Positions 1 through 61,857 of a DNA stretch of 64,000 nt are shown in pieces; the stretch's first letter is position 1, and every line of letters starts with the position of its first letter. The position numbers were made by a program, and so were the translations under genes. Location of the stretch: positions 68,512,001 through 68,576,000 of the forward strand of contig NW_024704742.1 in the NCBI RefSeq assembly GCF_018977255.1, given 5' to 3'. The notes under the pieces are model-generated. The model searched no databases. It saw only the letters and a list, made by a program, of their open reading frames with translations, and was not told where the DNA came from. The stretch is from Callorhinchus milii (Eukaryota).

Positions 1-1277
1 CTTGAAGGCTTAGTTGATGAAGGGCAGGAGGAGGCTCATGTGGAGCATGAACACTGACATAGACCAGTTGGGACGAATGGCCTTTTCTGTGCTGTGCATT
101 CTAATGTATAAACTGCTATATCAAATGCAAGAGGGGGCAAGATGAAGGGACTATGGGCTGGAATTCAAAGAGTGGGAGCAGAGAGGCTGAAGGCCTGACT
201 GCCGATCGTGGGGCGGGCAGGGCGGGAGAGACATGAAGCGGTCCAAAGCTGCTGAGCGGACAGGATGGTATGGATATTAAAACGCAGTCCTTCAATATGA
301 CAAGATTTAGATTTTTGTTGGTGATCCACCCATAAGGTGGGATTTTCTAATAAATACAGTACATATCACAATAATAGTAATTTGCCTCATTCAGACAACA
401 ATTGTATAAATTGGATGGAAATACTTTTACTTTTTATTTAAACCTATGCTGTCGACATGTATTGCAATTTAATTTAAAATTAGGTTTAAAATGGTTGCTG
501 ACCCATGTGCAGCAGTCCCTGGTGAATTGTGCCTTGGGTTGTTTGCTTTTTGGTACACTATTGCATCTTTAGTTTTTTTCATTTCCTGGACTGCTGTGGC
601 TGTTGACCATCTTGAGATGCTGAAGTAATTGTAAATAACTGATCAGTGTTATGATCCATTAACGCAGGCTAAGCAATATTTGCTCACAATGCAGAATTCA
701 GTTCTTCCCTCCCCCTTTCATGCATAAAGATTTTGAATCCGATCCCATGAAATACAGTGAAGGGGCTTTACAACTTTCTGCATATTTTTCAGGCGAGTAA
801 TTCACGGAGGAATATATTAATTTGGATGGACAGGTGCAGCCCAACAAAACTGAAAAAGATTTTATTTTAATTTTATTATTATTATTTATTATTAAGGATG
901 CGATTTGTGAAATAATAATCCATGCATTTGATAGAACGCCTTTTACGTCAGGAGGCTGTCTCAAAGTGCTTCACATGATTACTCTCAAGTGCAGTGACTG
1001 TATTTTATCGATGAACGCCTATTAAACGTGACGATCGAGCAGGGAAAACCCATCATTCGTTTTTGTTGTGGATAGATTGCCCTCTGCTGCTGAGAGGTTA
1101 GGGTAATAGGATTTAAGAAAAATTAAGTGGTGTTCGATTTGGGAAGCAGAGACTTTAATTATCAGAATTTTTTCAGTCAAGACTGTAGTATTCCTTTGTG
1201 TAACCTAGTTATTAAAAATGTGAAATTAAAAATTGGATTAGCATCGAATTTGCAAATAACATTTAAGGTGGACTGCA

Positions 1278-1305
1278 ATGGTGGCAGTGCACATTCACAA
1301 CCCTG
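1278..1305 (+). CDS. PANK2: Candidate short first coding exon of PANK2 (MVAVHIHNP + 1 nt)
   Basis: ATG in strong Kozak context (gcaATGg), in-frame TAA upstream at 1257, consensus donor CTG|gtaagt at 1305/1306. The phase-1 end joins the exon at 3665 in frame (G+CC = Ala), giving MVAVHIHNPAFPWFG, the same leader length as PANK3 and PANK1-beta. Confidence 0.65.
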
Positions 1306-1870
1306 GTAAGTGATTTCCCCACTGATTTCAAGAGGACTACATCTTTATACATTTACCTCCTCTGGAGCTACATGAACTGCAGTATTTGAGTTTGACTGTT
1401 TTGTGTTGGACAGGATTCAGTCAGTAATGTTTTTTTCAAATGGGGATGAATATGAAGCTTAACATCTCTTTAGATGGGATTCTAAACTATTTATTGAATA
1501 GTCGCTCTTAAACCTAGGAAATTGCTATTTAATATAGGTATTTGCATGGACCTACTTGAGTTCTTGCAGTTAAAATTTTACATTATGATCAACCATCCAA
1601 CCTAAGGCGTCGCCTTGGCATCCTTAGTCACATTCTTGCATCCGGGTTGGAAGAATCATCAGACGTAGTCAGTGCTGATAAATAAGTACTAGCATTTTGT
1701 TGCATTGTCAGAGGTGCCATCTTTCAGATGAAACATTCAACTAGAAGAGGAGTGAGTTTCTCCTAGAGTCCAAGCCAGCAGTCCTTCTAATCAATTGTTT
1801 CTTCTTTTAATAATAAAAATAATCCTAGGATTTTATGTAAAAATACATATATATGAGATATAAAGCGAAT

Positions 1871-2360
1871 TCATAGAATCATAGCATTATACAGCACAGA
1901 AGGAGGCCATGCTGGCTCTTGAAAGAGCTATCCAAATTAATCACACTCCCCAAAGCCTTGCAAATTTGTCCTCCCCAAATATCTATCCACTTCTCTCTTG
2001 AAAGTTGTTAGCAAATCAGCTTCCACCACCCTTTCAGGCAGTGTATTCCAGATCCAAACAACTCGCTGTGTAAAAAAAATTTCTCCTCACCTCCCCTCTG
2101 TTTTTTTTGGCAACTATTTTAAATTTGTGTCTTCTGGTTATTGACCCGCCTGCCAGTGGGAACAGTTTTTCCCTGTTCACTGCCCTCAAGATCAAAATCC
2201 CCTCATAATTTTGAACACCTCTATTAACTCTCCCCTTAACCTTTTCTGCTCCAAGGAAAACAATCCTAGCTTCTCTAGTCTCTCCACATAACTCAAGTCC
2301 CCCATTCCTTGTACCATCCTGGTAAATCTCCTTTGTACCCTCTCCAAGGCCTTGGAGAGA
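1871..2360 (-). mobile_element. CR1 LINE 3' fragment
   Basis: Minus-strand peptide NREKLFPL...TRRHKFK...RRNFF is typical of the CR1 ORF2 C-terminus; ends in a (ATTCTATG)-like tail. Confidence 0.85.
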
Positions 2361-3280
2361 TTTCTCCTCTAGCCTCCACACCGTATCGTGCGGCGATCTT
2401 CAGGGCTCTGCCCTCGGTCCCCTCCTCTTCAATATCTATGTGCTCTTTCTTGGTCATGCATCCTTCCGCAGACAAGGGATCAACTTCTACATGTAGGTGG
2501 ATGATGCCCAACACTATCTCTGTGTCTCCACCCTCGACTCCAGGGCCACTGCTGTCCTGACAGAATGTTTGTCAGACATCAAGTCCTGGATGAGAGCTAA
2601 CTTTCCTCAGTTGAACATTAACAAGACCGAGGCTCTCCTGATTGACTCCTGTCAGCGCCTCCACATTTCAGGCGCTGACAGCATCACCATCCATGGTTGC
2701 ACACTCCACCTTCCAAGCCACCCCGTAACATTGGCATCTTGTTTGACTCTCAACTTTATACCCCACATCTGTGCCATGACCCGCTCTGCCTTCCACCTCC
2801 GCAACATCTCCCAGCTCCGCCACTGTCACACCGCAGGCCACCAAAACCCTCATACACGCTTTCATAATAACAAGGCTTGACTATGCAAGTCGGCCTCCGC
2901 AACTCCTCTGTCCATAGGCTGCAGATCAACCAGAACTCTGCAGCCCGTTTCCTCTCCTGCACCAGGCTCCGTGACCCTTTCAACCCCATCCTCGTCTGAC
3001 TCCACTGGCTTCCCATCACACAGAGGATACAGGTCCAGATCCTGGTCCTCACCTTCAAAGCCCTCTATGGTCTTGCTCCCTCCTACCTCTGTGACCTCCT
3101 AATCCCCTGCCATCCTGCCCCACTCCCTCCGCTCAGCAGACACCGGCCTGCTTCACGTCCCCCGCCTCGCCTGCCCCCCATTGGCATGCGGGCCTTCTGC
3201 CACTCTGCCCCCACCCTCTGGAACTCCATCCTGTAGTCCCTCCCTCTCGACCCATTCCTTGCCTCCTTCAAGACCTACAA
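2360..3280 (+). mobile_element. L2 LINE fragment (3' RT region)
   Basis: Degenerate QGSxLGP and DD region, CLSDIKSWMRANFPQLNINKTE and LHWLP motifs with frameshifts. Confidence 0.88.
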
Positions 3281-3664
3281 CTACTTGAGCAGGCAGATAG
3301 ATTCTCAGTTTGACTGTTCATCCGAAGGATGCATGACTTTCAAAGGCATTTGGGAAAACCTTTCGCGTAGAAAATTGGTATCTGCACTTCCTTACAAATA
3401 CTCAGTGTGTTTCATAGCAATTACCTGTGAGATATTTCAATGGGAAAGAATCTGTATCAAATACAAGTATTATTATATACCATCCCAGGATTTTACAAAA
3501 TGAGTGTTAAAGTGAAAACCTGCAATAGATTTTTTTTTTCCCCCCCACCTTTCTGCCCCATTTATCTGTGTGCAAAATTGCTTAGCTGTAATTTTGACCT
3601 AATAAATAATGTATTGGTTTGAATAGTAAGAGATCTCACATATCCATTTTTCCCTTCTTTATAG

Positions 3665-4017
3665 CCTTTCCGTGGTTTGGAATTGACATTGGTGGGACCT
3701 TGGTAAAGCTGGTTTATTTTCAACCGAATGACATTACTATTGAAGAGGAGCATGAGGAAGTGATTAACCTGAGAAGTATACAGAAGTATTTGACATGCAA
3801 TGTAACTTATGGCTCCTCTGGCATCCGTGATGTGCATCTCCAACTCAAAGACTTGACGATTTGTGGGCGTAAAGGGAACTTGCATTTCATACGGTTTCCT
3901 ACCCAAAACATGGGGGCCTTTATTCAGATGGGCAAGGAGAAACACTTTTCAAGTCTGCACACAGTATTATGTGCGACAGGAGGTGGTGCATACAAATTTG
4001 AGGAAGATTTGCGCACA
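3665..4017 (+). CDS. PANK2: Pantothenate kinase 2, coding exon 2 (353 nt)
   Basis: Acceptor tttatag|, donor ACA|gtatgt. Encodes [18 protein letters not shown]...[13 protein letters not shown]...[15 protein letters not shown], the type II PanK ATP-binding loop region. Confidence 0.97.
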
Positions 4018-4284
4018 GTATGTATATCTTGACTCTGCCATTTTTACTTAATCCTGTCATTTTGAGCTACTGGAGTTGTTTCTATTCCTTTTATAAGTAA
4101 ATGTAATGTTTGGAAAAATCTGGTATTAGAAGAAAATTGTGAATGCCTAGTGTAATGTTTTCCTCCGGGTCCCTATACTTTTTAATATTTGTCTTTCAAG
4201 AATTCCTCTTTAATTATTTACTGCCCTTTTACCCACTTACCAACACTAGTAATATTTATTACTGTTTACTCTTCAACAACAGCA

Positions 4285-4900
4285 GCAACAACAACAAATT
4301 CCATTTGCCTTTCACGTCGTCAGGACGGGGAGGAGCGCAGGGAGGTTAGGGGTAGGAGGGTGGCCGAAGGCGCAGTTGAAGAAGAAGGTCTTGAGACGTG
4401 CCTTCAAGGAGGCAAGGGAACGAGCAAGGCAAAGGAACTGTGGGATGAAGGTCCAAAGGGTGGGGCAGAGAGGTTGAAGACCCAACTGCTGATGGTGAGA
4501 TAGGCAGGGGATGTGGAGCAGGCCAGAGCCTGGTGAGCGGAGGGAGTGGACAGGTTGATATGGTGTTAGCAGGTCACAGAGGTAGGAAGGAGCAAGGCCG
4601 TGGACGGTTTTGAAGGTGAGGATTTTGACCTCTATCCTGTGGGAGGTGGGACACCAGTGGAGTCAAGCGAAGATGGGGTTGATAGAGTTACGGAGCCTAG
4701 TGCGGGGAGGATACAAGCTGCAGAGTTCTGGATGATCTGCAGCCTGTGCAGGGAAGAGTTGGGAAGGCCGACAAACAAGGAGTTGGAGTAGTCTATCCTA
4801 GATGTAATAAATGGTGGATGAGGGTTTCGGAGGCCTGAGGGGTGAGGCAGTGGCGGAGTCAGGCAATGCTGCGGAGATGGGGGGAGGCAGAGCGGGTCAT
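4285..4900 (-). mobile_element. L2 LINE 3' fragment
   Basis: Reverse complement resembles the L2 3' portion seen at 2900-3280; (CAA)n tail at about 4280. Confidence 0.8.
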
Positions 4901-6040
4901 GCCATCAAACTGTCATCAATGGGGAAAAAATTAGTCCATTAGTCAATCTGTGCAATATATTCTTGTAAGTCGAATGAAGTCTGCAGGTTGAATGTGTTAT
5001 ACTTGTATTTCTGCTCTTGTATAATTACTGTTTGCACTGGGACTAGAAAATGCGATTATCATCAAACACAACTCTGCTCACATATCCAAAAGTGAATTTA
5101 TATTCATTATGTTGATTAACCTTTCTAGACCTTTTAGAAAAATAAGCTTAGAAAATGCTTTTCTAAGATTTACCCAATAGTGTATCTGCACAAGTGTACA
5201 GTCTGTACTTTATCACCTGATCTGAGCCGAGACAAAAGTAGGAGTAAAATCAGTTTCAGCTCTTCATTGCTGGCTAGTGACATTGGGAGGGTGGATATGT
5301 ACGTGCACACAAGGAAGCCATTCAACCCATTGAAGCTGATGGCAATTTTATTAGATCATAGCAGATCTTTTATTCCCTTGTCCTGCCTTTTCTCCATACA
5401 GCTTTATGTGCCCCTTTTATCTTCCCCCCTCCCTTGCCTACTTCAAGTTCTATCTCAAGACTTTCCTCTTCGACTGTGCCTACAGTCATTATCCCACCAT
5501 CACCCTTTTGCCCTCCACCCCTCCTGACTCCAACCCCAGCTTGGGTGCAAACCCTTGACTGTCCAGCGTCCTTCTGATGTGATCAGCGCTGTATAAATGC
5601 AATCTTTTGGTGTTGTATTTAATTTGTACACCTATTAAGAATTTTTTCATTAGACACCCATTGTCGAGACTAATGCATGGATAGTTGCCATGGATGGAGA
5701 ACTCGCGGAACCATACATTGGTAGAAGTAATAAAAGAGTCAGACATTGTCAGGAGAGATGGGGCAAGAGGAGGAAACTATGTGTGGTAATTAAATCCTGC
5801 ATGTTAAAAACAATGTTGAGACATGTTTAAATGTGTATTGGCCAACAATCCCCAAAATAAAATTGATCACATTCCACGGCCATTTGTGGGCAAATTTGCT
5901 GCAGCATTCACCCACCAAAAACACAGTAACTGCATTTTTCAGTTTAACCTGTGAAGTGCTTTAAGACGTCCTGGAGTGAAAGGTGCTTTATCAAATGTAA
6001 GGATTATTATTACATGGCTGCTGTATTAGCCATAAATATT

Positions 6041-6362
6041 GTGGAGTCCTGTAGCTCAGTGGTTAGAGCACTCGCTATGCAAGCGCGAGACCTGAGTTTA
6101 ATTCCAGGCAGAGGGCGAAATCTTGGGCAAGTTTCCTTACTCCACACAGAGCCTAATAATAATCCCTCCAAAACCAAAAACAATAATAAATTGGTCATTT
6201 TCAATCTACGACTGTTTGTGGGACATTGCTGTGCGCAATTGGCTGCCGCGTTCGCCCACAAATATACAGTCAATTCACTTTACAGGCGTGTTCTGTGAAG
6301 CGCTTTGGGACGTCCTCCCGACGTGAAAAGCGCTATATCAAATGCAAGGATTATTATTATTA
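6041..6362 (+). mobile_element. tRNA-headed SINE (family 1) with L2-like tail
   Basis: Head gtggagtcctgtagctcagtggttagagc...agtttaattcc (A box and degenerate B box), tail gcgctatatcaaatgcaagga(tta)n. Related copies at about 29480-29835, 39614-39955, 41940-42183, 60480-60710 and 61473-61857. Confidence 0.85.
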
Positions 6363-6692
6363 CATTTTGTAGCATATTCTGTTGTGCTTATAATGATAAT
6401 CCTTGCATTTGATATAGTGCCTTATCACATCTTTGAGACGTCTGTCTCAAAGCGCTTATATGGATATACTGTAAAATGAATTGACTATTTTGTGGGTGAA
6501 ACGTGGCAGCCAATTGTACACAAGCAGTATTCCTACAAACAGTGGTGGATTGAGTGACTAAATTATTTTTTATTTTTGAAGGGAATCAGCAGATTGAAAA
6601 GTTTTATTTTTAGCAGTTTCTATTTAGAGTTTGGGCAGTGTTTTTAATATGTTGACAAATAGTAATTTAGGTCTTGCCCTGCTTTCTTTCAG

Positions 6693-6946
6693 ATTGTTAA
6701 TCTCCAGCTTCGAAAACTGGATGAGCTTCATTGCCTTATCCAAGGGATGCTGCATATTGATTCATCAGGTTTTAATGGGTCTGCAGACTGCTATTACTTT
6801 GAGAATCCAACAGATCTGGAAAAATGCAAGAAGGTGGCGTACCCTTTGGACAACCCATATCCACTGCTGCTGGTGAATATTGGCTCAGGAGTCAGCATTT
6901 TGGCTGTGTATTCTAAAGATAATTACAAGCGAGTAACTGGCACCAG
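6693..6946 (+). CDS. PANK2: Pantothenate kinase 2, coding exon 3 (254 nt)
   Basis: Acceptor ctttcag|, donor CAG|gtgagc. Encodes [18 protein letters not shown]...[29 protein letters not shown]; frame continuous with neighbouring exons. Confidence 0.97.
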
Positions 6947-7858
6947 GTGAGCATCAAATGCTGCAACATCAATTAAGGTGCTTATAGTGGTGGAGCGCTC
7001 TGAGACACTGCCCTGCATGGAGGGTGCTGTATCAGTGCAAGTTGTTGAGATGATGTCTTAAAGAAACTACAGAAGATGAATACCTTTTCCATGTATTTTT
7101 AGCTGCATTATGCAATCTGGCTTCATCCCTGGAACCTCTTATGATGTCTAAGTTTTGTAGCCACAATAATCAATAATAAATAATAATCCTTACATTTGCT
7201 ATAGAACCTTTCATGTCGGGTGGACGTCCCAAAGCTCTTCACAGAATTTAATGGAAAATCTAGTGTCGCATGTGTCAGACACCTTGCTGACCAAAACAAA
7301 ATTGCTTGCGATTTAAAATTATTGTGACTTTGCCAATTACTTTTTGGATCGAACTTAATACATTTCTTTTGAAGAAATCAAGATTATAGATACTATTATC
7401 TAATCGTTTTTTTCAAAAAGTTTTACTGTCAAACTCTTGCGTCATTCGACTATTCCTTGAAGTAATGCTTCATTTTGTTACTGATTTTTCTTTTTGGTCT
7501 GGCATCACAGAAACACACCACCATATTTAAGAATATCTAAGTCAAATGACCGAGTTCCACATATTCCTGGAAATTTCCCTTTGTTTGGAATGGCATACAC
7601 ACTCACTCCCTAGAAAGTTTAACAAGCTTGTCATTGTGAATATACACTGTCTGTCAAGCTTCCTGCTTATCCAGCCAGGATTACTCTGCTTCTTTGGCTT
7701 TAGCAATAGCTGAGAAGAAACAATATCCAACGATTGGATTATCATTTCAGTTGTTTATCACTGTGATGGAATGTTACCTAGTTTCTAAATAGAAAATACT
7801 CATTTTATAAAGAGGCAGTATTCGGTATACCATTGGAAACGGTCTCTAATTTATAATA

Positions 7859-10800
7859 ATACCTGTACCTGTTGCAGCTATGCTTGCAACCAAAGGATCC
7901 AATATGGAATGTAGATTTCAGTGATACCACTCACAGACCATTTAACATGCCATAAAAACTGTATGTACACCTTAAGCAAAACTGTCATACATGTGTGATG
8001 AACTTGTTTTGGTCATAACTCATGAACGATAGAAGTTCCCATCAAAGGGTCATCATAGCTCGTGAATGATAGAAGATCTTATCAAAGCTACGCTGACTGA
8101 AGGGGTTTACTGTGTGATATGGCAAGTCCTTGAGTTTTTGCAAGGCTTCCGTGTAGACGACATTTGCAGTTTTTTCTCCTTCAGCCTGATGTACAGGTTT
8201 TGAGATGAATCCACACGTGAGCATCCAACATAGAATTGTCCATGGGAAAAGCAGAGTGTGTTCAAGAAAAGGCCAGCAACCTTTAATCTCTGCCCCTGTG
8301 CCTTGTCAATTGACATGGCAAAGCATATTTGAACATGGAATTATAGCCTTTTGAACTCAAAACTGGTCATCACTTGGGAGCAGTGGGATGCAAGGAATGA
8401 TTACATCTTCCCCTTTGAACTGATCAGTCAGAATAATTGCTTCTATAACTGCTTTACCACCAACATTGCATAGCTTTGGTGGATCTAGATACCTCAGCAG
8501 CGTGATTATGCATCAAAGCTTTAGTATGAGTTTGTGTGGAGGCACACCGGATGGTTTCAAAGAGTTTAAAAACTCAGTTGGGTAGTTAACAGCATTTTCG
8601 ATGTCATGAATAATGTCTATGGACTTGTACACAGTTTCTTGGCCAGGGATGTCATTGAGTAGCTGGGAATTGATCTTGCAGGCAGATTCATTTTTTTGGA
8701 GCAAGGATTGCTCATTGACACAACCATTTATGATATATGTAGTTATGGCTGAGGTTCGGGAAAACGTTTTTGAGCTTTGCTATATCTTGTACAATGGTCC
8801 CACAACCCTCGGGGATCTGAATTTGACCATCTGTTGGATCCACTGGAACTTTGCCAACCCCAGTTTCCAGAAGGAGGTTTGCATATGCCCCAGCTGCAAA
8901 ACTGCAATGAAGGTGGACTCACGTGTTTGTCTTGAGGTTAATCTCCTCCACACATGGCCACAGCCTGGAAGCCTTAAGACTGGCATTCAGTTCATCAGCA
9001 TGGGTACCACGTTGTATGGCAGGTAGTGTCTGGTGGAAGTCTCCTGACAAAATAAGTGTCATCCCTCCCATCATCTGGATGTTTTCTCTGATGTCCTGAA
9101 GTGTCCTGTCCAGAGCCTCAAAGGCATGCTTGTGCGACACAGTGCATTCATCCCACACAATGGTTTTACAGTCCTTGATCAATGTAGCTGCAGCTGTAAC
9201 CTTCTTGATATTGCACACTGGATCCTCTGTATGAGAAAGGTTCAGTGGCAGCTTGAAGGCAGAATGGACTGTTCTGCTGCCCGTAAGTAGAGTTACCGAA
9301 GTAAGCAGAGGACACAACTGCAAGTGCAATTTTTCCCCTGGACCAAATCTTGGCCAAGATGTGATTGATGAGGTATGTTTTTTCTATACCACCAGGTGCA
9401 TCAAGAAAGATAATGCCTCCTTCATTGTGGTCAACTTTGTGAAGATCCTCTGATATGCTGCAGCTTGATCTTCTGTCGTGGTTGATTCTCTCTCCTGGAC
9501 AAACTGCTGCATTTCATATTGGTTATTGGTTGATTTCCTGCAAAAGTTCTCTGGCCATGGTCACATCTTCTGTTCTGTGAATACAGGGCAGACCATAGTG
9601 TGGCAATGCCTTTCCTCCCACAGCCATTAGTTTGTCTTCTAAGTGTATGAGGGCTTGGTTGAAGATGGCATCACTGTAGTCCAACTCAGTTTGTGGATTT
9701 GCACTGCGTAACTAATGGAAAACCTCTTCTGACATGCTTTCTTTGTGGTTATTCTACAGCTGTTTTGGGTTAGACAGACCATAGGTGTGCAGCATGATGG
9801 CAAACAAATCCCTCAGTCTGATAGTAGACCGTGCTGTGGCTGCTTCTTCTAATGTCTGGTTCCAGTGGGCATCGTCTTCTAGGAGACACCTGCAGTGGCA
9901 TGTTTCTCAGAAAGTATTGCAGACTTCGTCATCAACGGTTTTAAGATCCTTATAGCTTATTGGACCTCCCACAATGTGCAGCAATAGCGTTAAGAAGTAG
10001 CATTCAAAGTTGTTTGGATGCGCTGTGTACACCCTGCCAAGTGCGTCACTGGACTTGACAGAGATAGTCTTCAACAGGAGTACCTCGAACTCTTCACTTC
10101 CACTTCTTGGTATGGGAGTTCCATGTGAAATACTTTGGGACCTCCCAGTAGAGAAGGATTTTTGCAAACTCGTCCTGTTGAATAGTTCGAAGAATGAGTT
10201 AGTGTGGTTTTTTGGAGGTTCAAGTGAACCTTTGCCTTTCCCGAACATTTGCTTCTGTAAAAAAAAAAAACACCTTTGGGCGTTTTCAAGGTGAATCTGA
10301 AGGTGTTGGACCACGGGATGTGGATCATGTATGTGGAAGCCCAAAGTTCTCAAGATTGCTTCATTGGTGCTTACATATCGGCACATCTAGTAGTATATTG
10401 CCTTGTCTCTTTGGGCTTCCTCCCTCTCGGGTTGAAACACAGCCATGTTGTATCCCTTGTTCATATATTTGATGCTCTTAGCAGAGTTGCAAAACTCGAC
10501 ATTGATGTGAGTGTTGAAGAGCCAAGGGAAAAAGGGTCTGTATGGGACAACCCAACTGTTGTCTTCTTCCACCTGCTGTTTGCTGTTTGTCAGTACTGAA
10601 TGGCATCCACCACCTCCAGTTGACCTCCAGCCTGTACAAAGGATACCCATCATGACCTGGGTCTCCTGTACGAAGCTCCTTGGATATTGCTTTGAGCAGG
10701 AGTCATCTTTCATGCAGGGAGATTTTTTGTTGAAGTGTCTACATGGACCTTGAATCATGTGTTTCTTTATGATTTCAAAGAGTACAGAGTCTGGATTTGG

Positions 10801-12400
10801 CAGTTTTGCAGAGATGACATCGTCGATTTGCTTAGGCTGTATTTTTTCGATGAGCCACAGAACATACTTTTGACACTCAGTGGTGTAGAGGTAACAATGG
10901 ACTTTGCCAAAGACATGATTTTTGGTGATCAGCTCCATCAGTTTTAAGAACTTTGAAGTGGAAAACCCTGGCTATGAGATCATGGAGGTCCTGTGGCTTC
11001 TGTCCAGGCAACAGTTCCTGCTTGATCCCCTCCCAATTGCGGTTGCCGGTGAATATGATGAACAGGTCAGTTTGATCGTACACTTGCACATAGCACAATG
11101 CATCCTGGGTTCTTTCGTACATAACCATTGGCCCCCGGCCCAGTGAAGCTGGGTGGCAAGATGACCAGTTGACCTACGTTGTAGGTGTCACCAGCGTTTA
11201 TAAGTGCATCCCACAAAAGAATGTACTCCTCAACCCTGAGTTTCTTCTGGTTCAAACAGAAAAGCAGGAGTCTCTCAGCTTCGATCTTGGTATATGTGCC
11301 TATGATGAATTGATGGCAAAGGAAGTTTGTACACAGAAGGATGTTGTAATCGCCTTCACGTTGCATCAACCTATGCGCATAAAGAGCCATAGCAGACACC
11401 TTTTTGTCAGGCCTTGACTGTTCAATGTTGGGATTTGTTTGCCATATCTAGAAATGGTAGCCATCTTCACGTGGGAATAAGGTTGGGTACTGGAGGGCAT
11501 CGTATCCCCTGTTAGTCTCACACACTCATTTGAGTTTGTTGTCATGTTGCTGCAACACAATGTCCTGCTTACCATGTTCTTCACCCACAATTAGGATGGC
11601 TAATTTGTTCATGCTGGCCAGCAGGTGTCTTGTCTGCATGGATGATCATAGCTGAGCGCAGCAAAATGGCGTGATCTTGGCTGATGGGCATCATTTGCTG
11701 TATTCTTGAATGCTTTTCTGCGTCAAAATCTAGCCTTTGAGTGGGAAACTCGTTTTCCCGTGCTCTTGTAATCCTTTCAGCATTGAAGTCCAGCCGTGCT
11801 GTTCTTTGTTCTTCAGTTTCATTTAATTGGTCTTCTCTCTTTTGTCTAGCACTTTTACTTATCCTTGAAAGGCTTGATCTTCGCTTAGGCATCTTTGTAA
11901 TGATAAATGTAAATTTATAATTTATGATCACCGGGACATCCTCCCGACGTGAAAACCACTTCACAAATGTAATTTTGTTGTTGTTTATCTTGTTCCTGCC
12001 GCTTGGCTTCATCCGAGTGGGTGCATGCGTACCTACGTGCTCTGTGATGAATCATGCCATATTGCCACTGTGAGCCGGCGCAGCCACCAGGTGTAACTGC
12101 AGTGTGAGCGTACATATGTACGTGCTCTGAGATGCACGATGCCACAGCGCCACTATGATGCGGCGCGGCCACCAAGTATAACTGCAGTGCAAAACAAAAA
12201 ACTGCCATATATGTGTGATGAGCTTGTTTAGGTCATAGCTCATCAACGATAGGAGATCCCCGAAAACAAATATGCCCATGACATTCCCAGATGAAAGACC
12301 TTTCCGATAAGGTATAAACCATGTCTATCAGCCAATTGGTTATTGAGATCGTGGCTGATACACATGCACAAACACATTATCATTTTATTAGTATAGAAGA
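7859..12400 (-). mobile_element. Decayed Helitron (Rep + PIF1-like helicase), frameshifted
   Basis: 5' end A|TCTTCTATACTAATAAAA at 12400; hairpin gttgcagc-tat-gcttgcaac (7871-7890) near a degenerate 3' CTRR. Fragments encode MPKRRSS...ETEEQRTARL, LFIIFTGNRNW, RYVSTNEA, FLDAPGGIEKT (Walker A), IVWDEC (Walker B), GDFHQTLP, MSIDKAQGQ and FSHGQFYVGCSRV. Confidence 0.93.
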
Positions 12401-16719: not shown

Positions 16720-16896
16720 TATTGGAGGTGGAACCTTTCTTGGCCTGTGCTGTTTGCTCACTGGTTGCTCAACATTTGACGAAGCCCTTGAGATGGCATC
16801 AAATGGCGAGAGCACAAAAGTGGATAAATTAGTACGAGACATCTATGGAGGAGACTATGAGCAGTTTGGACTGCCAGGTTGGGCTGTGGCATCCAG
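16720..16896 (+). CDS. PANK2: Pantothenate kinase 2, coding exon 4 (177 nt)
   Basis: Acceptor cttgcag|, donor CAG|gtaaga. Encodes (S)[16 protein letters not shown]...[38 protein letters not shown] plus LPGW matches PANK2 rather than PANK1 or PANK3. Confidence 0.97.
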
Positions 16897-22851: not shown

Positions 22852-22975
22852 TTTTGGCCACATGATGAGTAAAGAAAAGCAGGAATTAGTCAGCAAAGAA
22901 GACTTGGCCAGAGCAACATTAGTCACCATCACAAACAACATCGGCTCCATAGCCATGATGTGTGCACTGAATGAG
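22852..22975 (+). CDS. PANK2: Pantothenate kinase 2, coding exon 5 (124 nt)
   Basis: Acceptor ttctcag|, donor GAG|gtcaga. Encodes (S)[41 protein letters not shown]. Confidence 0.97.
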
Positions 22976-23493: not shown

Positions 23494-23571
23494 CTGTGTT
23501 TTCAGCTTCTTTACAGTGCTGACTTGTAGCATCCGGATCAAGCAGCATTGTACAGGGCTATGAAAGTACTG
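23494..23571 (+). ncRNA. MIR103A2: microRNA mir-103 precursor (mir-103-2 type) in PANK2 intron 5
   Basis: Mature miR-103-3p AGCAGCATTGTACAGGGCTATGA at 23541-23563; 5p arm AGCTTCTTTACAGTGCTGACTTG at 23504-23526. The arms pair, and miR-103/107 genes are known to sit in this intron of PANK genes. Confidence 0.97.
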
Positions 23572-24549: not shown

Positions 24550-24675
24550 AATATTAACAGGGTGGTGTTTGTGGGTAACTTTCTGAGGATCAACACGTTG
24601 TCCATGAGACTTCTGTCCAATGCTATGGACTATTGGTCAAAGGGGCAGTTGAAGGCACTCTTTATGGAACATGAG
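24550..24675 (+). CDS. PANK2: Pantothenate kinase 2, coding exon 6 (126 nt)
   Basis: Acceptor tgtttag|, donor GAG|gtgaga. Encodes [42 protein letters not shown]. Absent from the ORF track; translated by hand. Confidence 0.96.
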
Positions 24676-25298
24676 GTGAGATTCAGAAATGCTCCTATTA
24701 CCTTCTCCATTCTCCAGGCATTGTTGTAAGTTTATTTTAAAGGTAGTTGTACGCCACTGCACAATGTACAAAGATACCTGCAGAGATGTGGGGTCTCTCA
24801 CACAGCCACTTGTCATGATAGCTGCCAGATGTCCTGTGGTAAGAGGCATTGGCAAATGCTGAGAGCAGTTTGCCTTTCCAGCTTGAATGCTGTTTTGGTG
24901 CATGTTGGAAGATGATATGAGAGAGCAAACCTAAAATAAAGTATTTCTTCTCCAATACATTCTGTAGCCATTGAAGTGCCTACAAAATGTAGGCAATTTA
25001 ACTTTAACTTGCTAAGAATTGTGTATTGCCTCTTTTGTATTCGGCCAAACAACTTTGACAGCAGACAACACAGCTTTTAGAATTGACTGTATTGAATAGC
25101 ACAAATGTAAATTGAACTACAATACAAATGATTTTATAAGACTTTTTGTAAAACTTGGATGTGTGTGACTTTTGGCTGTTTTTATGAATGACTTTGACAT
25201 ATTCAGTACAAGGAAAATATGTTTTTGTGAGCATTTTCATTGGAAGCTTTCATGTTGTATGTGTTATAATAAAGGAATAGTATGTTTCCTTCTTGCAG

Positions 25299-25349
25299 GG
25301 TTACTTCGGAGCCGTGGGTGCCCTGCTTAAACTTTTCGACCCTGTCTGA
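25299..25349 (+). CDS. PANK2: Pantothenate kinase 2, last coding exon (GYFGAVGALLKLFDPV*)
   Basis: Acceptor cttgcag|; conserved (E)GYFGAVGALL motif; stop TGA at 25347-25349. Confidence 0.96.
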   Translation, partial: GYFGAVGALLKLFDPV

Positions 25350-40639: not shown

Positions 40640-43600
40640 TACATTTCCAGTCAATCACATGCAGATGTCCTCGAAATACCCTGCGATTACTTAGCGAAAA
40701 AAAAAGCCATCTCAATTTCAGAATGGCAATTACATATACAAAAATATAGCTTACAAATAGCAATGTTTTAAAATATATTCTGCTGCAGAATTCTCATCAT
40801 ATATAAACAGGTACGGGACCGATATCACAGATCCTGTAAACCTCACAAAGTTAGGTTTGTTACATGGTATCAAAGAAAGGCAGAAAGCCCAATCACAGAA
40901 AAGAGGATCTCTGCATCTGCTAGAAGTTACACTGTTCTTATAGGAATAAACATACAAAAAGTTTTACGAAGAAATTGACCTTACTCCTAGCAAAGGCGTC
41001 AGTCAGTCAGTCATTCAATGAGTCAGTCAGTCAGTCAGCGACAGTCACAGTCAGTCGTTGTGAGGCTGCTTGTTCTGGAAAATGTTCAACAGTGGCTTGT
41101 TCGCTTTGCGATTGGCTTGTGGCTTCCATTGCACTTTGTTTTCAGTCAGGCCTCAGGCTTTGATCAAAGAAAGGAGGAACAATGTGGTGGTGGTGTGTGG
41201 TGAAAACAATGTGAAAGTCAGACCATTAGGCAATATTTTCACAATAATATTACACTGACACATAAAGCCAGCATCTCAGTAAGGGGTAGAAATTCCGTTG
41301 GGCAACAGATGATCATTAGAGGCTGTTAAACATTCCATGGAATTTCCAACCCTCAAGGGTGGCACTGGACTCATTGCACTTGTTTTCTGCCTGTCGATAG
41401 CATCACTGAACGTAGCAATTTTGCGCTCATGGCTTGGGGGAATGGAAGAGGAGGGGTGAGCGGAGACCACCATCAGAAAACACACCGAACCAAATCCAGT
41501 GATTTCCCACAATTTCAACCCCTCTCACATGTTCTCAAAAAGACTCATCAGGACAGAGGATCTTGTTCTTTTTAAAAAGCATCAAACAAATGAACAAGTG
41601 AAACCCTCACTTCACTGACTTCACCATTCCCTCTGGCAAAGGCGAGCTGAATGGATGAAAAACATGTTCCCTTCTGCAGGCTGTGCTGCTAATCGCTTTC
41701 TATCAGCTCTCTGGATGAGTGAGTCTAACCGTCTGGGTTGTGTGGTCACACCGAGTCTGTTTGCTGTCTTTGCTCCTGAACACAGAATGCCATCACCCAC
41801 ACCCCAAGCCTGCTCTTTCAATGCTGGGTTAAATTCCCTGAATAGGCAACCTGGCTCAGTGGTAGCAGTCTTGTTTCTGAGTCAGAGGTTCAAGCCCCAC
41901 GTTGGGTCTTGGAATTACATTTGTCTAAGCTTCACTCCAATTGCACACAGTATTGTCCCACAAACAGTTGCGGATTGAGTGACCAATTTTTTTTAGGGGG
42001 GAGAGATTATTACCCCTGGAAAGCATCCGCCAATTGACTAACAAATGGGTTCCTACTTACTGCTGGGTAAACAGAGGTGTGTGAAGTAAGGAAACTTGCC
42101 TAAGATTTCAGACTGCCGGGAATCAAACCCGGGTCTTTTCACTTGCGAGGCGAGTGCTCTAACCACTATGCTACGGGGCTCCATGTTTATTTCTACACTG
42201 TAATTCTTGAAAGTTACAGAAAAGTGGCTTCAAAACTAAGGCTGAGTTTTAAAACTTTATCAAATTCTGGCAGCTCTGAAATACTACATAAGAGTGAATT
42301 CAGAGCCGGGTGAAATTTCTTCTGGGGATTGAAGCAGAGTCCAAAATGGGTTTTTAAATGGAAATCAGACAAACATGTTGAAAAGGAAGCATTTAATTGG
42401 ACGTGAGAATGAGGCAGGGGAGTGGGACTAAGCAGATAACAACAACTTGCATATATACAGCGCCCTTCACGTGGGGCAGTGTTTTGGAGTGCTTGACAGT
42501 GGCGGACCCTGTCACGGAGCCGGGGGGGGTGGGGGAGGAGGTGACCGTAAACACTGTTGAAGAGGAAGGTCTTTAGGCGTGATCTAAAAAAGGGGGAGGA
42601 GGCACGAGGGAGAGATTGAGGGTGAGAGTTCCAAAGTTTAGGGGCCAGCGGTGGAGCAGAGGGGACGTGTGACAAGCAGGAAGCCAGAGCCAGCCGAGGT
42701 GGGACAGCGGGTAGTGCGATAACTCTTTCAAAGAGACCCAACAGGGACGCCAGGTTGAAGAGCCTCTCTGCTGTAGGATTCTTAACACTAAACTAAATCC
42801 AGAGTGAATCGAGATCTGTTCTGCTTCCTCCGTTTCTTCGCTCACAAGGAAAATGTGGCTCAGCTCCCAGATTCTGCTGTATAAATGAATCCAAGTACAA
42901 CCAGAACTTGAAGCCAAGCAATACAAGTTGGGAAAAACTCAAGGGTTGAGCTGTTGGGTTTGGGTTCGTTCCCACTTTGGATTGGGAAGGAATTTTTAAT
43001 AATAGCAAATGATCCCAACATTTCTCCATGTCTGAGTACGGCTAAAATCAAAACATCACAAAGGGTTTGCTGTCAAGTGCTTTGACTAAATTTGTGAGCA
43101 AACAAGAACAACTTGGATTTATATAACGCCCTCCACGCTGGACGGCGTCTCAGAGCGCTTTACAATAATGGATCCCAGGGCGAGCCAGGGGGAGGGGGAA
43201 GAAGGTGACCAAAGGCGCGGTCGAAGAGAAAGGTCTTCAGCAGAGACCTGAAAATAGGGAGGGAGCGAGGCGAAGGGAGTGAGGAAGGGAGTTCCAGAGC
43301 CTTGGGGCATAGTGCCTGAAAGCACGGGCACCGAGGGTGGAGCGGAGGACTCGGGGGACGAGGAGGCCAGACCCAGAGGAACCCTGGAGCCTGGACTCCA
43401 GAGCAGTGCTGGGGGTGAGTGCTGTATTTTCAGAGGTACTGTGCTTTGGATGAGATGCTAAAACCGAGGTCCCATCTGACTGTTCAAGTGGACGTTCAAG
43501 ATCCCTTGGGGCTATTTGAGAAGAGAAGGGAGTTTTTCCTAGTGTCCCGACCCACAATACCCCAGATAAAAATTAAGTCACTCACTTCATGGCTGTTTGT

Positions 43601-48586: not shown

Positions 48587-48698
48587 CTACACTAAGTTAT
48601 CAGTGGGCCCGAGGCCTCCCTGCTCCGGGTTACTCTGGAGCACGGGTGTATTACACAGCGGGCAAACCTTCCTCACCTCCAGCCACTTGATCAGACAT
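48587..48698 (-). CDS. RNF24: RING finger protein 24, last coding exon
   Basis: Minus-strand acceptor after a (CT)n tract; encodes (K)[36 protein letters not shown] with TAG at 48589-48587; C-terminal half of a RING-H2 finger. Confidence 0.95.
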
Positions 48699-49203
48699 CT
48701 GGGACGGTACCGAGAGAGAGAGAGAGAGAGAGAGAGGGGAAATAGATTTAGTACAAAGAACAAAAACAACTTGTATTGATATTGCACCCTATGTAGGATA
48801 GCGTCCCCGAGCACTTCACACTGGCCTATAGCTACAGGTGTGAAAGATTTTTGTTAGGTAAGGGTATCAAACGATATGGGGCAAAGGCAGGTAATTGGAG
48901 TTGAGCTGGGGGCGCGAGGAGGGTGAGATAGAGGGGTAGAGGGAGGGAGTCCTGGAAGGTTAGGGCTGTACAACAACAACAATAACAACAGCAACCTTAC
49001 ATATCAGGAGGACGTCCCAAGGCGCTGGACAAGTTAGGGTTTGCACTCAAGCTGGGGGTTGGAATCAAGAGGGGTGAAGGGTAGGGGGGAGTGGGGGTGG
49101 GAGTGTGGCTGAAGTGGGGGTGGGGTGGGGGCAGTAAAGCTAAAGGCCCGACCTCCGATGGGTCTAAAGGCAGCCAGTGACACCAGCCACATTTGCGACT
49201 TAC

Positions 49204-49283
49204 TTTCTGTGGAAAGCATGTTTGCATGGGCAGATCCCAAGCTCATCCTTGGTCTTGAACTCCTCCAAACAAACAGCACAGAT
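49204..49283 (-). CDS. RNF24: RNF24 coding exon (80 nt)
   Basis: Minus-strand cag| acceptor and |gtaagt donor; encodes [26 protein letters not shown](K), the N-terminal half of the RING-H2 finger. Confidence 0.96.
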
Positions 49284-61681: not shown

Positions 61682-61857
61682 TTTTGGGGTGGGGGAGGGA
61701 TTATTACCCCAGAAAAGCAATCCACCAATCGACTAACAACCAGTTTCCGATTTACCACTAGATAAACTTGCCTAAGATTTTGCTCAGCCTGGGAATCGAA
61801 CCCAGGTCCTCTCGCTTGCGAGGCGAGTGCTCTAACCAATATGCTGCAGGACTCCAC
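61473..61857 (-). mobile_element. Near full-length tRNA-headed SINE (family 1) with internal (TTAG)n
   Basis: Intact B box GGTTCGATTCC on the minus strand, full shared tail, (TTAG)n at 61651-61680. Confidence 0.88.

What the first reader, a model, noticed from the sequence alone, without database searches (positions are those of the whole stretch)
1257..1311. Short PANK3/PANK1-beta-type first exon in a PANK2 gene
Seen: strong-Kozak ATG at 1278, upstream in-frame stop, 28 coding nt and a consensus gtaagt donor in the phase exon 2 needs. The spliced CDS is 28+353+254+177+124+126+51 = 1113 nt, or 370 aa, starting MVAVHIHNPAFPWFG. Known: PANK3 (370 aa, MKIKDAKKPSFPWFG) and PANK1-beta have a leader of this length, while human PANK2 is characterised by a long N-terminal extension with mitochondrial targeting. 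Inference: this lineage may keep an ancestral short, probably cytosolic, PANK2 isoform. The ORF track misses it.
Basis: partly seen in the sequence, partly recalled or inferred. Interest (0 to 1): 0.7.

Follow-up and report, generated by a model that had tools for sequence, protein, structure and literature searches.

The report
Unproven short exon in chimaera PANK2
A start codon and splice signal inside the first intron of an elephant-shark vitamin-B5 kinase gene look like a short alternative first exon, but the gene's main start lies further upstream and the short piece does not resemble the real short starts of its sister genes, so it is probably a silent or rarely used look-alike.

Summary
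The sequence facts hold: ATG 1278 (G at -3 and +4), stop at 1257, 28 nt, GTAAGT at 1306, and a 1113-nt, 370-aa splice product. The gene is PANK2 of Callorhinchus milii (core identical to its annotated proteins; RNF24 next door; a separate PANK3 exists). All four annotated C. milii isoforms seen use an 85-aa long first exon lying upstream of the window, and exon-2 contigs of two runs continue into sequence that is not the candidate. The motif is rare by chance (0.0007-0.05 per 3.7 kb), but MVAVHIHNP scores like random intron against 22 genuine PANK1-beta/PANK3 leaders (27% of random peptides score as high; genuine ones 0.01% or less). It has no basic residue, and none of 470 fetched PANK proteins carries it. 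No 1305->3665 junction was seen, in a weak test; one contig stops exactly at 1305, a faint hint of donor use. Best reading: an intron-1 look-alike, silent or spliced rarely (0.65); minor new first exon 0.22; diverged ancestral beta exon 0.11. Cytosolic PANK2 is already known in mouse and zebrafish, and short-leader PANK2 models exist in many vertebrates. Low interest.

The parts
895..1018 (.). decayed interspersed-repeat fragment just upstream of the candidate (about 20 copies elsewhere in the window); 1050-1600 itself has no copy in the window
   Evidence: self-blastn
1168..1176 (+). possible weak splice acceptor (ttttttcag); would define a 129-nt phase-1/phase-1 cassette 1177-1305 with five in-frame stops before the ATG
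   Evidence: use not shown
1257..1259 (+). in-frame TAA upstream of the ATG
1278..1305 (+). candidate 28-nt coding piece (9 codons + 1 nt, MVAVHIHNP) in annotated intron 1 of PANK2
   Evidence: random-like against beta leaders
1306..1311 (+). consensus donor GTAAGT, preceded by G
   Evidence: one contig of run X2 stops at 1305, one of X1 reads through
3665..4017 (+). PANK2 exon 2 (FPWFG..., ATP-binding motif)
   Evidence: exact boundaries in contigs of X1 and X2
5654..5785 (+). 132-nt cassette present in two older C. milii models (P0006; P0462 is in its cluster)
6693..6946 (+). PANK2 exon 3
16720..16896 (+). PANK2 exon 4
22852..22975 (+). PANK2 exon 5
23494..23571 (+). mir-103/107 precursor in intron 5
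   Evidence: Rfam RF00129, 93.4 bits
24550..24675 (+). PANK2 exon 6
25299..25349 (+). PANK2 exon 7, coding part to TGA
48590..48697 (-). last RING exon of RNF24 (tail-to-tail neighbour, PANK2 synteny)
   Evidence: PDB 2ep4, E 3.4e-9
49203..49283 (-). RING exon of RNF24
   Evidence: PDB 2ep4, E 3.8e-13

Best explanation
The window holds exons 2-7 of the C. milii PANK2 gene. Its working transcript starts at a long first exon upstream of the window and makes a 445-aa enzyme (shown at protein and contig level). The stretch 1257-1311 is intron-1 sequence that happens to hold an ATG 28 nt before a consensus donor. It is either ignored by the spliceosome or used rarely as a cryptic donor, most simply as a 129-nt stop-laden cassette (1177-1305) that would send the message to nonsense-mediated decay (inferred). 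It is not a PANK3/PANK1-beta-type first exon.
For: All 4 C. milii isoforms found carry the 85-aa leader ending KKNRP|P, and those 85 residues have no tblastn hit in the window. 44 of 56 listed chondrichthyan proteins of this locus have that long exon, 7 start inside the core, 5 have other short starts, 0 the candidate leader; 0 of 470 fetched proteins hold its motif. Exon-2 contigs of X1 and X2 run unbroken 408 and 520 letters beyond 3665 into sequence that is not at the candidate (bookkeeping). A contig of X1 covers 913-1518 straight through the donor. Beta-leader profile: candidate reached by 27% of random intronic peptides, 22 of 22 genuine leaders by 0.01% or less in leave-one-out; genuine leaders have 2-4 K/R, the candidate 0. 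No CpG island, TATA or GC box in 900-1290, GC 33-42%. The species has its own PANK3 with a canonical leader (P0393).
Against: The motif is rare by chance at one locus (0.0007-0.05), has exactly the beta length and lies where a beta exon would lie. One X2 contig ends exactly at 1305; about 0.8% by chance from 10 listed ends over 2574 nt, though it is one run and the sister run reads through. Contigs drop rare forms, and only two of the four laid runs covered exon 2 fully, so a tissue-restricted first exon is not excluded. DNA-level conservation could not be tested. Tissue-specific promoters often lack CpG islands (general knowledge).
Confidence: 0.65

Rival explanations
1. A real but minor, lineage-specific alternative first exon: a weak intronic promoter near 1020-1270 makes a transcript spliced 1305->3665 and translated from ATG 1278 into a 370-aa cytosolic PANK2 with a complete catalytic domain. 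The leader is new sequence, not inherited from the beta exon.
For: Strong Kozak and best-consensus donor in the right phase; low chance rate; X2 contig end at 1305. Solved PANK1/PANK2 chains begin 2-7 residues before FPWFG, so the leader is dispensable for the fold; D17, G19, K24, E138, S192, S195, R207 are intact. Unrelated short PANK2 leaders are modelled in cattle, macaque, mole rat, deer mouse, crow, devil ray, sturgeon and lungfish.
Against: Absent from all 4 C. milii isoforms seen; exon-2 contigs are not broken at 3665 by a second incoming path; no promoter signature.
Confidence: 0.22
2. One reading: a retained, diverged copy of the ancestral beta first exon. The pre-duplication gene had a long and a short first exon; PANK1 kept both, PANK3 the short one, and chimaera PANK2 still has both.
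For: Long exons of PANK1 and PANK2 end alike (RRMDSGRKNRP|P and RESVKKNRP|P) and PANK1-beta and PANK3 share the short leader, so a two-exon ancestor is parsimonious (inference). Length, phase and position fit. This PANK2 is fast-evolving (end branch 0.17 against 0.01-0.03 in sharks), which could erode a leader.
Against: Leader is random against the beta profile; its best match, 2 of 8 residues, is reached or beaten by 39% of random peptides. PANK3 leaders are nearly unchanged from chimaera to mammals. No beta-like PANK2 leader in 52 listed shark and ray proteins.
Confidence: 0.11
3. The gene is really a PANK3 (as the current database label says) and this is its only first exon.
For: NCBI names P0004/P0005 'pantothenate kinase 3'.
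Against: A separate C. milii PANK3 sits in the PANK3 clade (100/99), while the window groups with the long-exon shark proteins (99/98); RNF24 is the neighbour (PANK2-RNF24 linkage in PMC6135963); long exon 1 is annotated and exon-2 contigs have 408-520 upstream letters.
Confidence: 0.02

Closest known systems
PANK1-beta / PANK3 short first exon
   Same: 9 codons + 1 nt, phase-1 donor into the FPWFG exon, 10-residue leader, 370-aa product; M at 1 and P at 9
   Different: no MK/MQ/MR start, no K/R at all, profile score like random intron; no transcript or conservation shown
Vertebrate PANK2 with long exon 1 (zebrafish, mouse, sharks)
   Same: this gene: seven coding exons, mir-103 in intron 5, RNF24 neighbour, leader ending KKNRP|P, no human-type targeting stretch (first 40 aa hold 6 R/K and 4 D/E against 6 and 0 in gibbon)
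   Different: core unusually diverged (14 of 226 near-invariant columns changed)
Sporadic short-leader PANK2 gene models from intron-1 exons (Bos MRIRVFSHPV, Macaca MSKSF, Nannospalax MLKPF, Corvus MTSF, Mobula MKAA, Acipenser MAQTA, Protopterus MVYGKKKYA)
   Same: small ATG exon spliced in phase 1 to exon 2, giving 364-379 aa (306 aa in the macaque model)
   Different: those are in public annotations, this one is not; the leaders are unlike each other and unlike the candidate
Cryptic or poison cassette exon
   Same: strong donor, weak upstream acceptor 129 nt away, in-frame stops, intron-1 position
   Different: inclusion not shown

Membership tests
beta-type PANK first exon (PANK1-beta/PANK3) | 28 coding nt ending in a phase-1 donor, 10-residue leader before FPWFG | tested here: met
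   10-residue extension stated in PMC3496714
beta-type PANK first exon (PANK1-beta/PANK3) | basic leader M-[KQR]-[LIMF]..., 2-4 K/R in positions 2-9 | tested here: not met
   0 K/R; score -16.6, reached by 27% of random peptides; 22 of 22 genuine leaders at 0.01% or less
beta-type PANK first exon (PANK1-beta/PANK3) | lies between the long first exon and exon 2 | tested here: met
   long leader not in the window, so upstream; order in PANK1 recalled, not tested
beta-type PANK first exon (PANK1-beta/PANK3) | own promoter and capped 5' end | tested here: inconclusive
   no CpG island, TATA or GC box; contigs cannot show a start
beta-type PANK first exon (PANK1-beta/PANK3) | spliced to exon 2 in RNA | tested here: inconclusive
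   no 1305->3665 joint among 15 shown, 290 hidden; one contig stops at 1305, one reads through
beta-type PANK first exon (PANK1-beta/PANK3) | leader conserved in related species (protein level) | tested here: not met
   0 of 56 listed chondrichthyan proteins of the locus, 0 of 470 fetched proteins; no other chimaera was among them
beta-type PANK first exon (PANK1-beta/PANK3) | ATG, spacing and donor conserved in related genomes (DNA level) | not testable with these tools
   no genome held; no chondrichthyan-like locus among 17 from metagenomes
PANK2 orthologues | RNF24 as tail-to-tail neighbour | tested here: met
   PMC6135963 passage
PANK2 orthologues | outside the PANK1 and PANK3 clades, with a separate PANK3 in the same species | tested here: met
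   PANK3 100/99, PANK1 100/100, window with shark long-exon proteins 99/98; PANK2 as one clade not resolved (18% of bootstrap trees)
PANK2 orthologues | seven coding exons, mir-103 in intron 5 | tested here: met
   same layout in zebrafish (PMC4684146); the miRNA family is shared by PANK1-3, so not diagnostic alone
human-type mitochondrial PANK2 | N-terminal mitochondrial targeting stretch | tested here: inconclusive
   the 85-aa chimaera leader is short and holds acidic residues; no predictor was run

The most novel reading that the evidence does not exclude
Elephant-shark PANK2 still uses a diverged copy of the ancestral short (beta) first exon, so the pre-duplication vertebrate PANK gene had two promoters that were later split among PANK1, PANK2 and PANK3; the beta-like RI[RQ]V..SHP segment modelled in cattle and tarsier PANK2 would be a second trace.
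Probability: 0.11. Interest if true: 0.45.

Novelty: not a real feature. Interest (0 to 1): 0.18.

Why it matters
If the exon were the ancestral beta exon, it would show that the long/short promoter pair predates the vertebrate genome duplications and that PANK2, the gene behind PKAN, once made a short cytosolic form like its sisters. That is a neat but modest point of gene history: non-human PANK2 is already known to be cytosolic, and short-leader PANK2 models are common in annotations. On present evidence it is a look-alike in an intron and changes nothing in the annotation.

Tried and rejected
No genome is held for this window, so the upstream exon and other loci could not be read. Run search on 1040-1330: no RNA holder listed on record; 6 of 12 rows hold the stretch; not used as evidence. 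Laying X8 and X9: no cover at 1128-1555 and exon 2 barely covered, so uninformative. The joint table was flooded by repeats (15 shown, 290 hidden; the control joint 4017->6693 is also not shown); bin depths at 1128-1341 are fully accounted for by the listed records, but contigs drop rare forms, so a missing junction contig is not absence. Search among 64-205-aa proteins for chimaera exon-2 fragments: best of 120 listed is 83% identical, none with the leader. Metagenome scan: 17 loci, one vertebrate-like with PANK3-type residues (L001), no match to 1-1500 of the window. Resemblance to the vole leader ending HQNPV (P0038) and to the cattle leader: rejected as too slight. Repeat origin of 1257-1311: no copy in the window. 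Earlier findings: five look-ups, nothing. Paper searches listed no paper on chondrichthyan PANK2 first exons or on PANK first-exon evolution; most subscription papers, among them the early PANK2 gene-structure papers, are not in the library. No fold was run: solved structures already show the leader lies outside the domain.

Full report
Observation. ATG lies at 1278 with G at -3 and +4, an in-frame TAA at 1257, and G|GTAAGT follows after 28 nt. It is the only GTAAGT in 1-3664. With exons 3665-4017, 6693-6946, 16720-16896, 22852-22975, 24550-24675 and 25299-25349, all GT-AG, the splice product is 1113 nt and 370 aa (one search had four boundaries off by one, corrected). A 20-Mb simulation gives 0.0007 such motifs per 3664 nt for the exact form, 0.005 with any good donor, 0.01-0.05 for 16-40 nt and 0.035-0.18 for any length to 150 nt. 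The window's own 128 kb hold 3 strong-Kozak/GTAAGT cases, this the only one of 28 nt. It is uncommon at one locus, but expected now and then in a scan over many genes (inference).

Which gene. Exon 2 is 100% identical to Callorhinchus milii proteins P0004-P0006 and the whole core equals P0004 from residue 86. The current label 'pantothenate kinase 3' is misleading. In a 34-row tree the window groups with five long-exon shark and ray proteins (99/98), apart from a PANK3 clade that holds a separate C. milii PANK3 (100/99) and a PANK1 clade (100/100); PANK2 as one clade is not resolved. Two RNF24 exons lie on the minus strand at 48.6-49.3 kb, the linkage named in PMC6135963 (passages seen). mir-103 sits in intron 5, as in zebrafish pank2 (PMC4684146, passages). 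The gene is PANK2.

The main first exon is elsewhere. All four C. milii isoforms found have an 85-residue leader ending KKNRP|P, and those residues have no tblastn hit in the window. Of 56 listed chondrichthyan proteins of this locus (clusters were listed to at most 15 members, so not all members were seen), 44 have the long exon, 7 start inside the core, 2 end in MKAA and 3 read in from what looks like the acceptor tract; none has the candidate leader, nor does any of 470 fetched proteins. No other chimaera was among them. On 700-7100, runs X1 and X2 (RNA by guess; their contigs have exact exon boundaries) hold exon-2 contigs that go on for 408 and 520 letters upstream of 3665. These letters are not at the candidate, since the listed records alone account for the cover at 1128-1341. 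Their length fits 256 coding nt plus a 5' untranslated part; the letters themselves were not shown.

RNA at the candidate. An X1 contig covers 913-1518 straight through the donor; it may be pre-mRNA or DNA. An X2 contig covers 907-1305 and stops exactly at the donor with no loose end, and the next starts at 1297. From 10 listed ends over 2574 nt, a stop at a given base in one of two runs has about 0.8% chance. It could mark a fork where spliced and unspliced reads each fell under the assembler's threshold (inference), but it is one run of one study, the sister run reads through, and it is below what the tool calls a weak hint. No 1305->3665 joint was shown, yet 290 joints were hidden by repeats and the control joint 4017->6693 was not shown either. 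X8 and X9 barely cover exon 2. The junction test is inconclusive. If the donor is used, it need not be from a promoter: an acceptor-like ttttttcag at 1168-1176 defines a 129-nt cassette with five in-frame stops before the ATG, which would act as a poison exon.

Is it a beta exon? 48 PANK1-beta and PANK3 entries give 22 distinct leaders, all beginning MK, MQ or MR and holding 2-4 K/R; the C. milii PANK3 leader differs from the mammalian one by one residue. MVAVHIHNP has no basic residue and scores -16.6, reached by 27% of random intronic peptides; each genuine leader left out of the profile is reached by 0.01% or less. Its best identity, 2 of 8, is reached by 39% of random peptides. The +4 G that makes the Kozak context 'strong' is itself impossible for K, Q or R at position 2. 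There is no CpG island, TATA or GC box upstream; a decayed repeat lies at 895-1018. In favour of ancestry remain the exact length, the position, the likeness of the long-exon ends of PANK1 and PANK2, which makes a two-exon ancestor parsimonious (inference), and the fast evolution of this gene.

How it would work if real. A transcript from about 1020-1270 spliced 1305->3665 would give a 370-aa enzyme. Solved PANK1 and PANK2 chains begin 2-7 residues before FPWFG, and D17, G19, K24, E138, S192, S195 and R207 are intact (roles of E138, S195, R207 from one passage of PMC8366970), so it should fold and, lacking a targeting stretch, be cytosolic (inferred). This would add little: mouse PanK2 is cytosolic (PMC3496714; abstract, introduction, first results section and passages seen; also a passage of PMC8861153), zebrafish Pank2 lacks the human targeting stretch and sits in cytosol and nucleus, and a cytosolic human variant is discussed in PMC7448160 (passages). 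Short-leader PANK2 models already exist for cattle, macaque, mole rat, ground squirrel, deer mouse, crow, devil ray, sturgeon and lungfish; their RNA support was not checked. Searches listed no paper on this exon or on PANK first-exon history; no supplements were opened, and early subscription papers on PANK2 gene structure were not seen.

Verdict. Intron-1 look-alike, silent or used rarely as a cryptic donor: 0.65. Minor lineage-specific first exon: 0.22. Diverged ancestral beta exon: 0.11. PANK3 with a single short exon: 0.02. These odds are my judgement from the results above. Interest 0.18; 0.45 if the ancestral reading proved true. Raw-read junction counts and one more chimaera genome would settle it.

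Noticed in passing
window 3665-25349 (PANK2 core): The chimaera PANK2 core departs at 14 of 226 near-invariant columns (136 other PANK1/2/3 cores, median 1; three shark/ray PANK2 0-1 and Heptranchias 0; only Albula P0291 has more, 16), among them D140H, R306M, A335S and Y336N in PANK3 numbering. R306 lines the pantothenate/dimer-interface pocket in PANK3 (PMC8693618 passages). Catalytic residues are intact. May mean altered feedback control or relaxed selection.
   Followed up: partly
proteins P0448 (Bos) and P0088 (tarsier): PANK2 models with MRIRVFSHP and VRIQVISHP before exon 2 score in the top 0.2% on the beta-leader profile, far better than the window's candidate: possibly a beta-like remnant in mammalian PANK2 intron 1, or a product of protein-guided modelling. 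Pupfish P0347 (MKIKNRKTK, 0.05%) is a similar case.
   Followed up: partly
window 5654-5785: 132-nt in-frame cassette (ttag| ... |gtaatt) between exons 2 and 3 in an older C. milii model; it would put 44 residues into the catalytic domain. Absent from the two current isoforms.
   Followed up: partly
window 25281-25298: Alternative acceptor 18 nt upstream of exon 7 adds YVSFLQ in isoform X1 (P0005).
   Followed up: no
window 23494-23571: mir-103/107 precursor in intron 5.
   Followed up: no
window 8900-12050, minus strand: Decayed frames inside PANK2 intron 3 with helicase-like and rolling-circle-like motifs (TLILSGDFHQTLP, IIFLDAPGGIEKT, HMIQGPC), resembling a Helitron-type transposon (family name recalled, not searched); an 85-nt tandem repeat at 12034-12189.
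   Followed up: no
window 42115-42174 and 61789-61845, minus strand: Two partial tRNA-like matches, probably heads of tRNA-derived SINEs (inference).
   Followed up: no
window 48590-49283, minus strand: Last two RING exons of RNF24; its earlier exons were not mapped.
   Followed up: partly
elasmobranch proteins P0107, P0121, P0137, P0144, P0145, P0157: Several sharks and rays have 355-aa PANK2 models starting at the Met of FPWFGMD; the chimaera has Ile there, so a non-coding 5' exon could not give that form.
   Followed up: no
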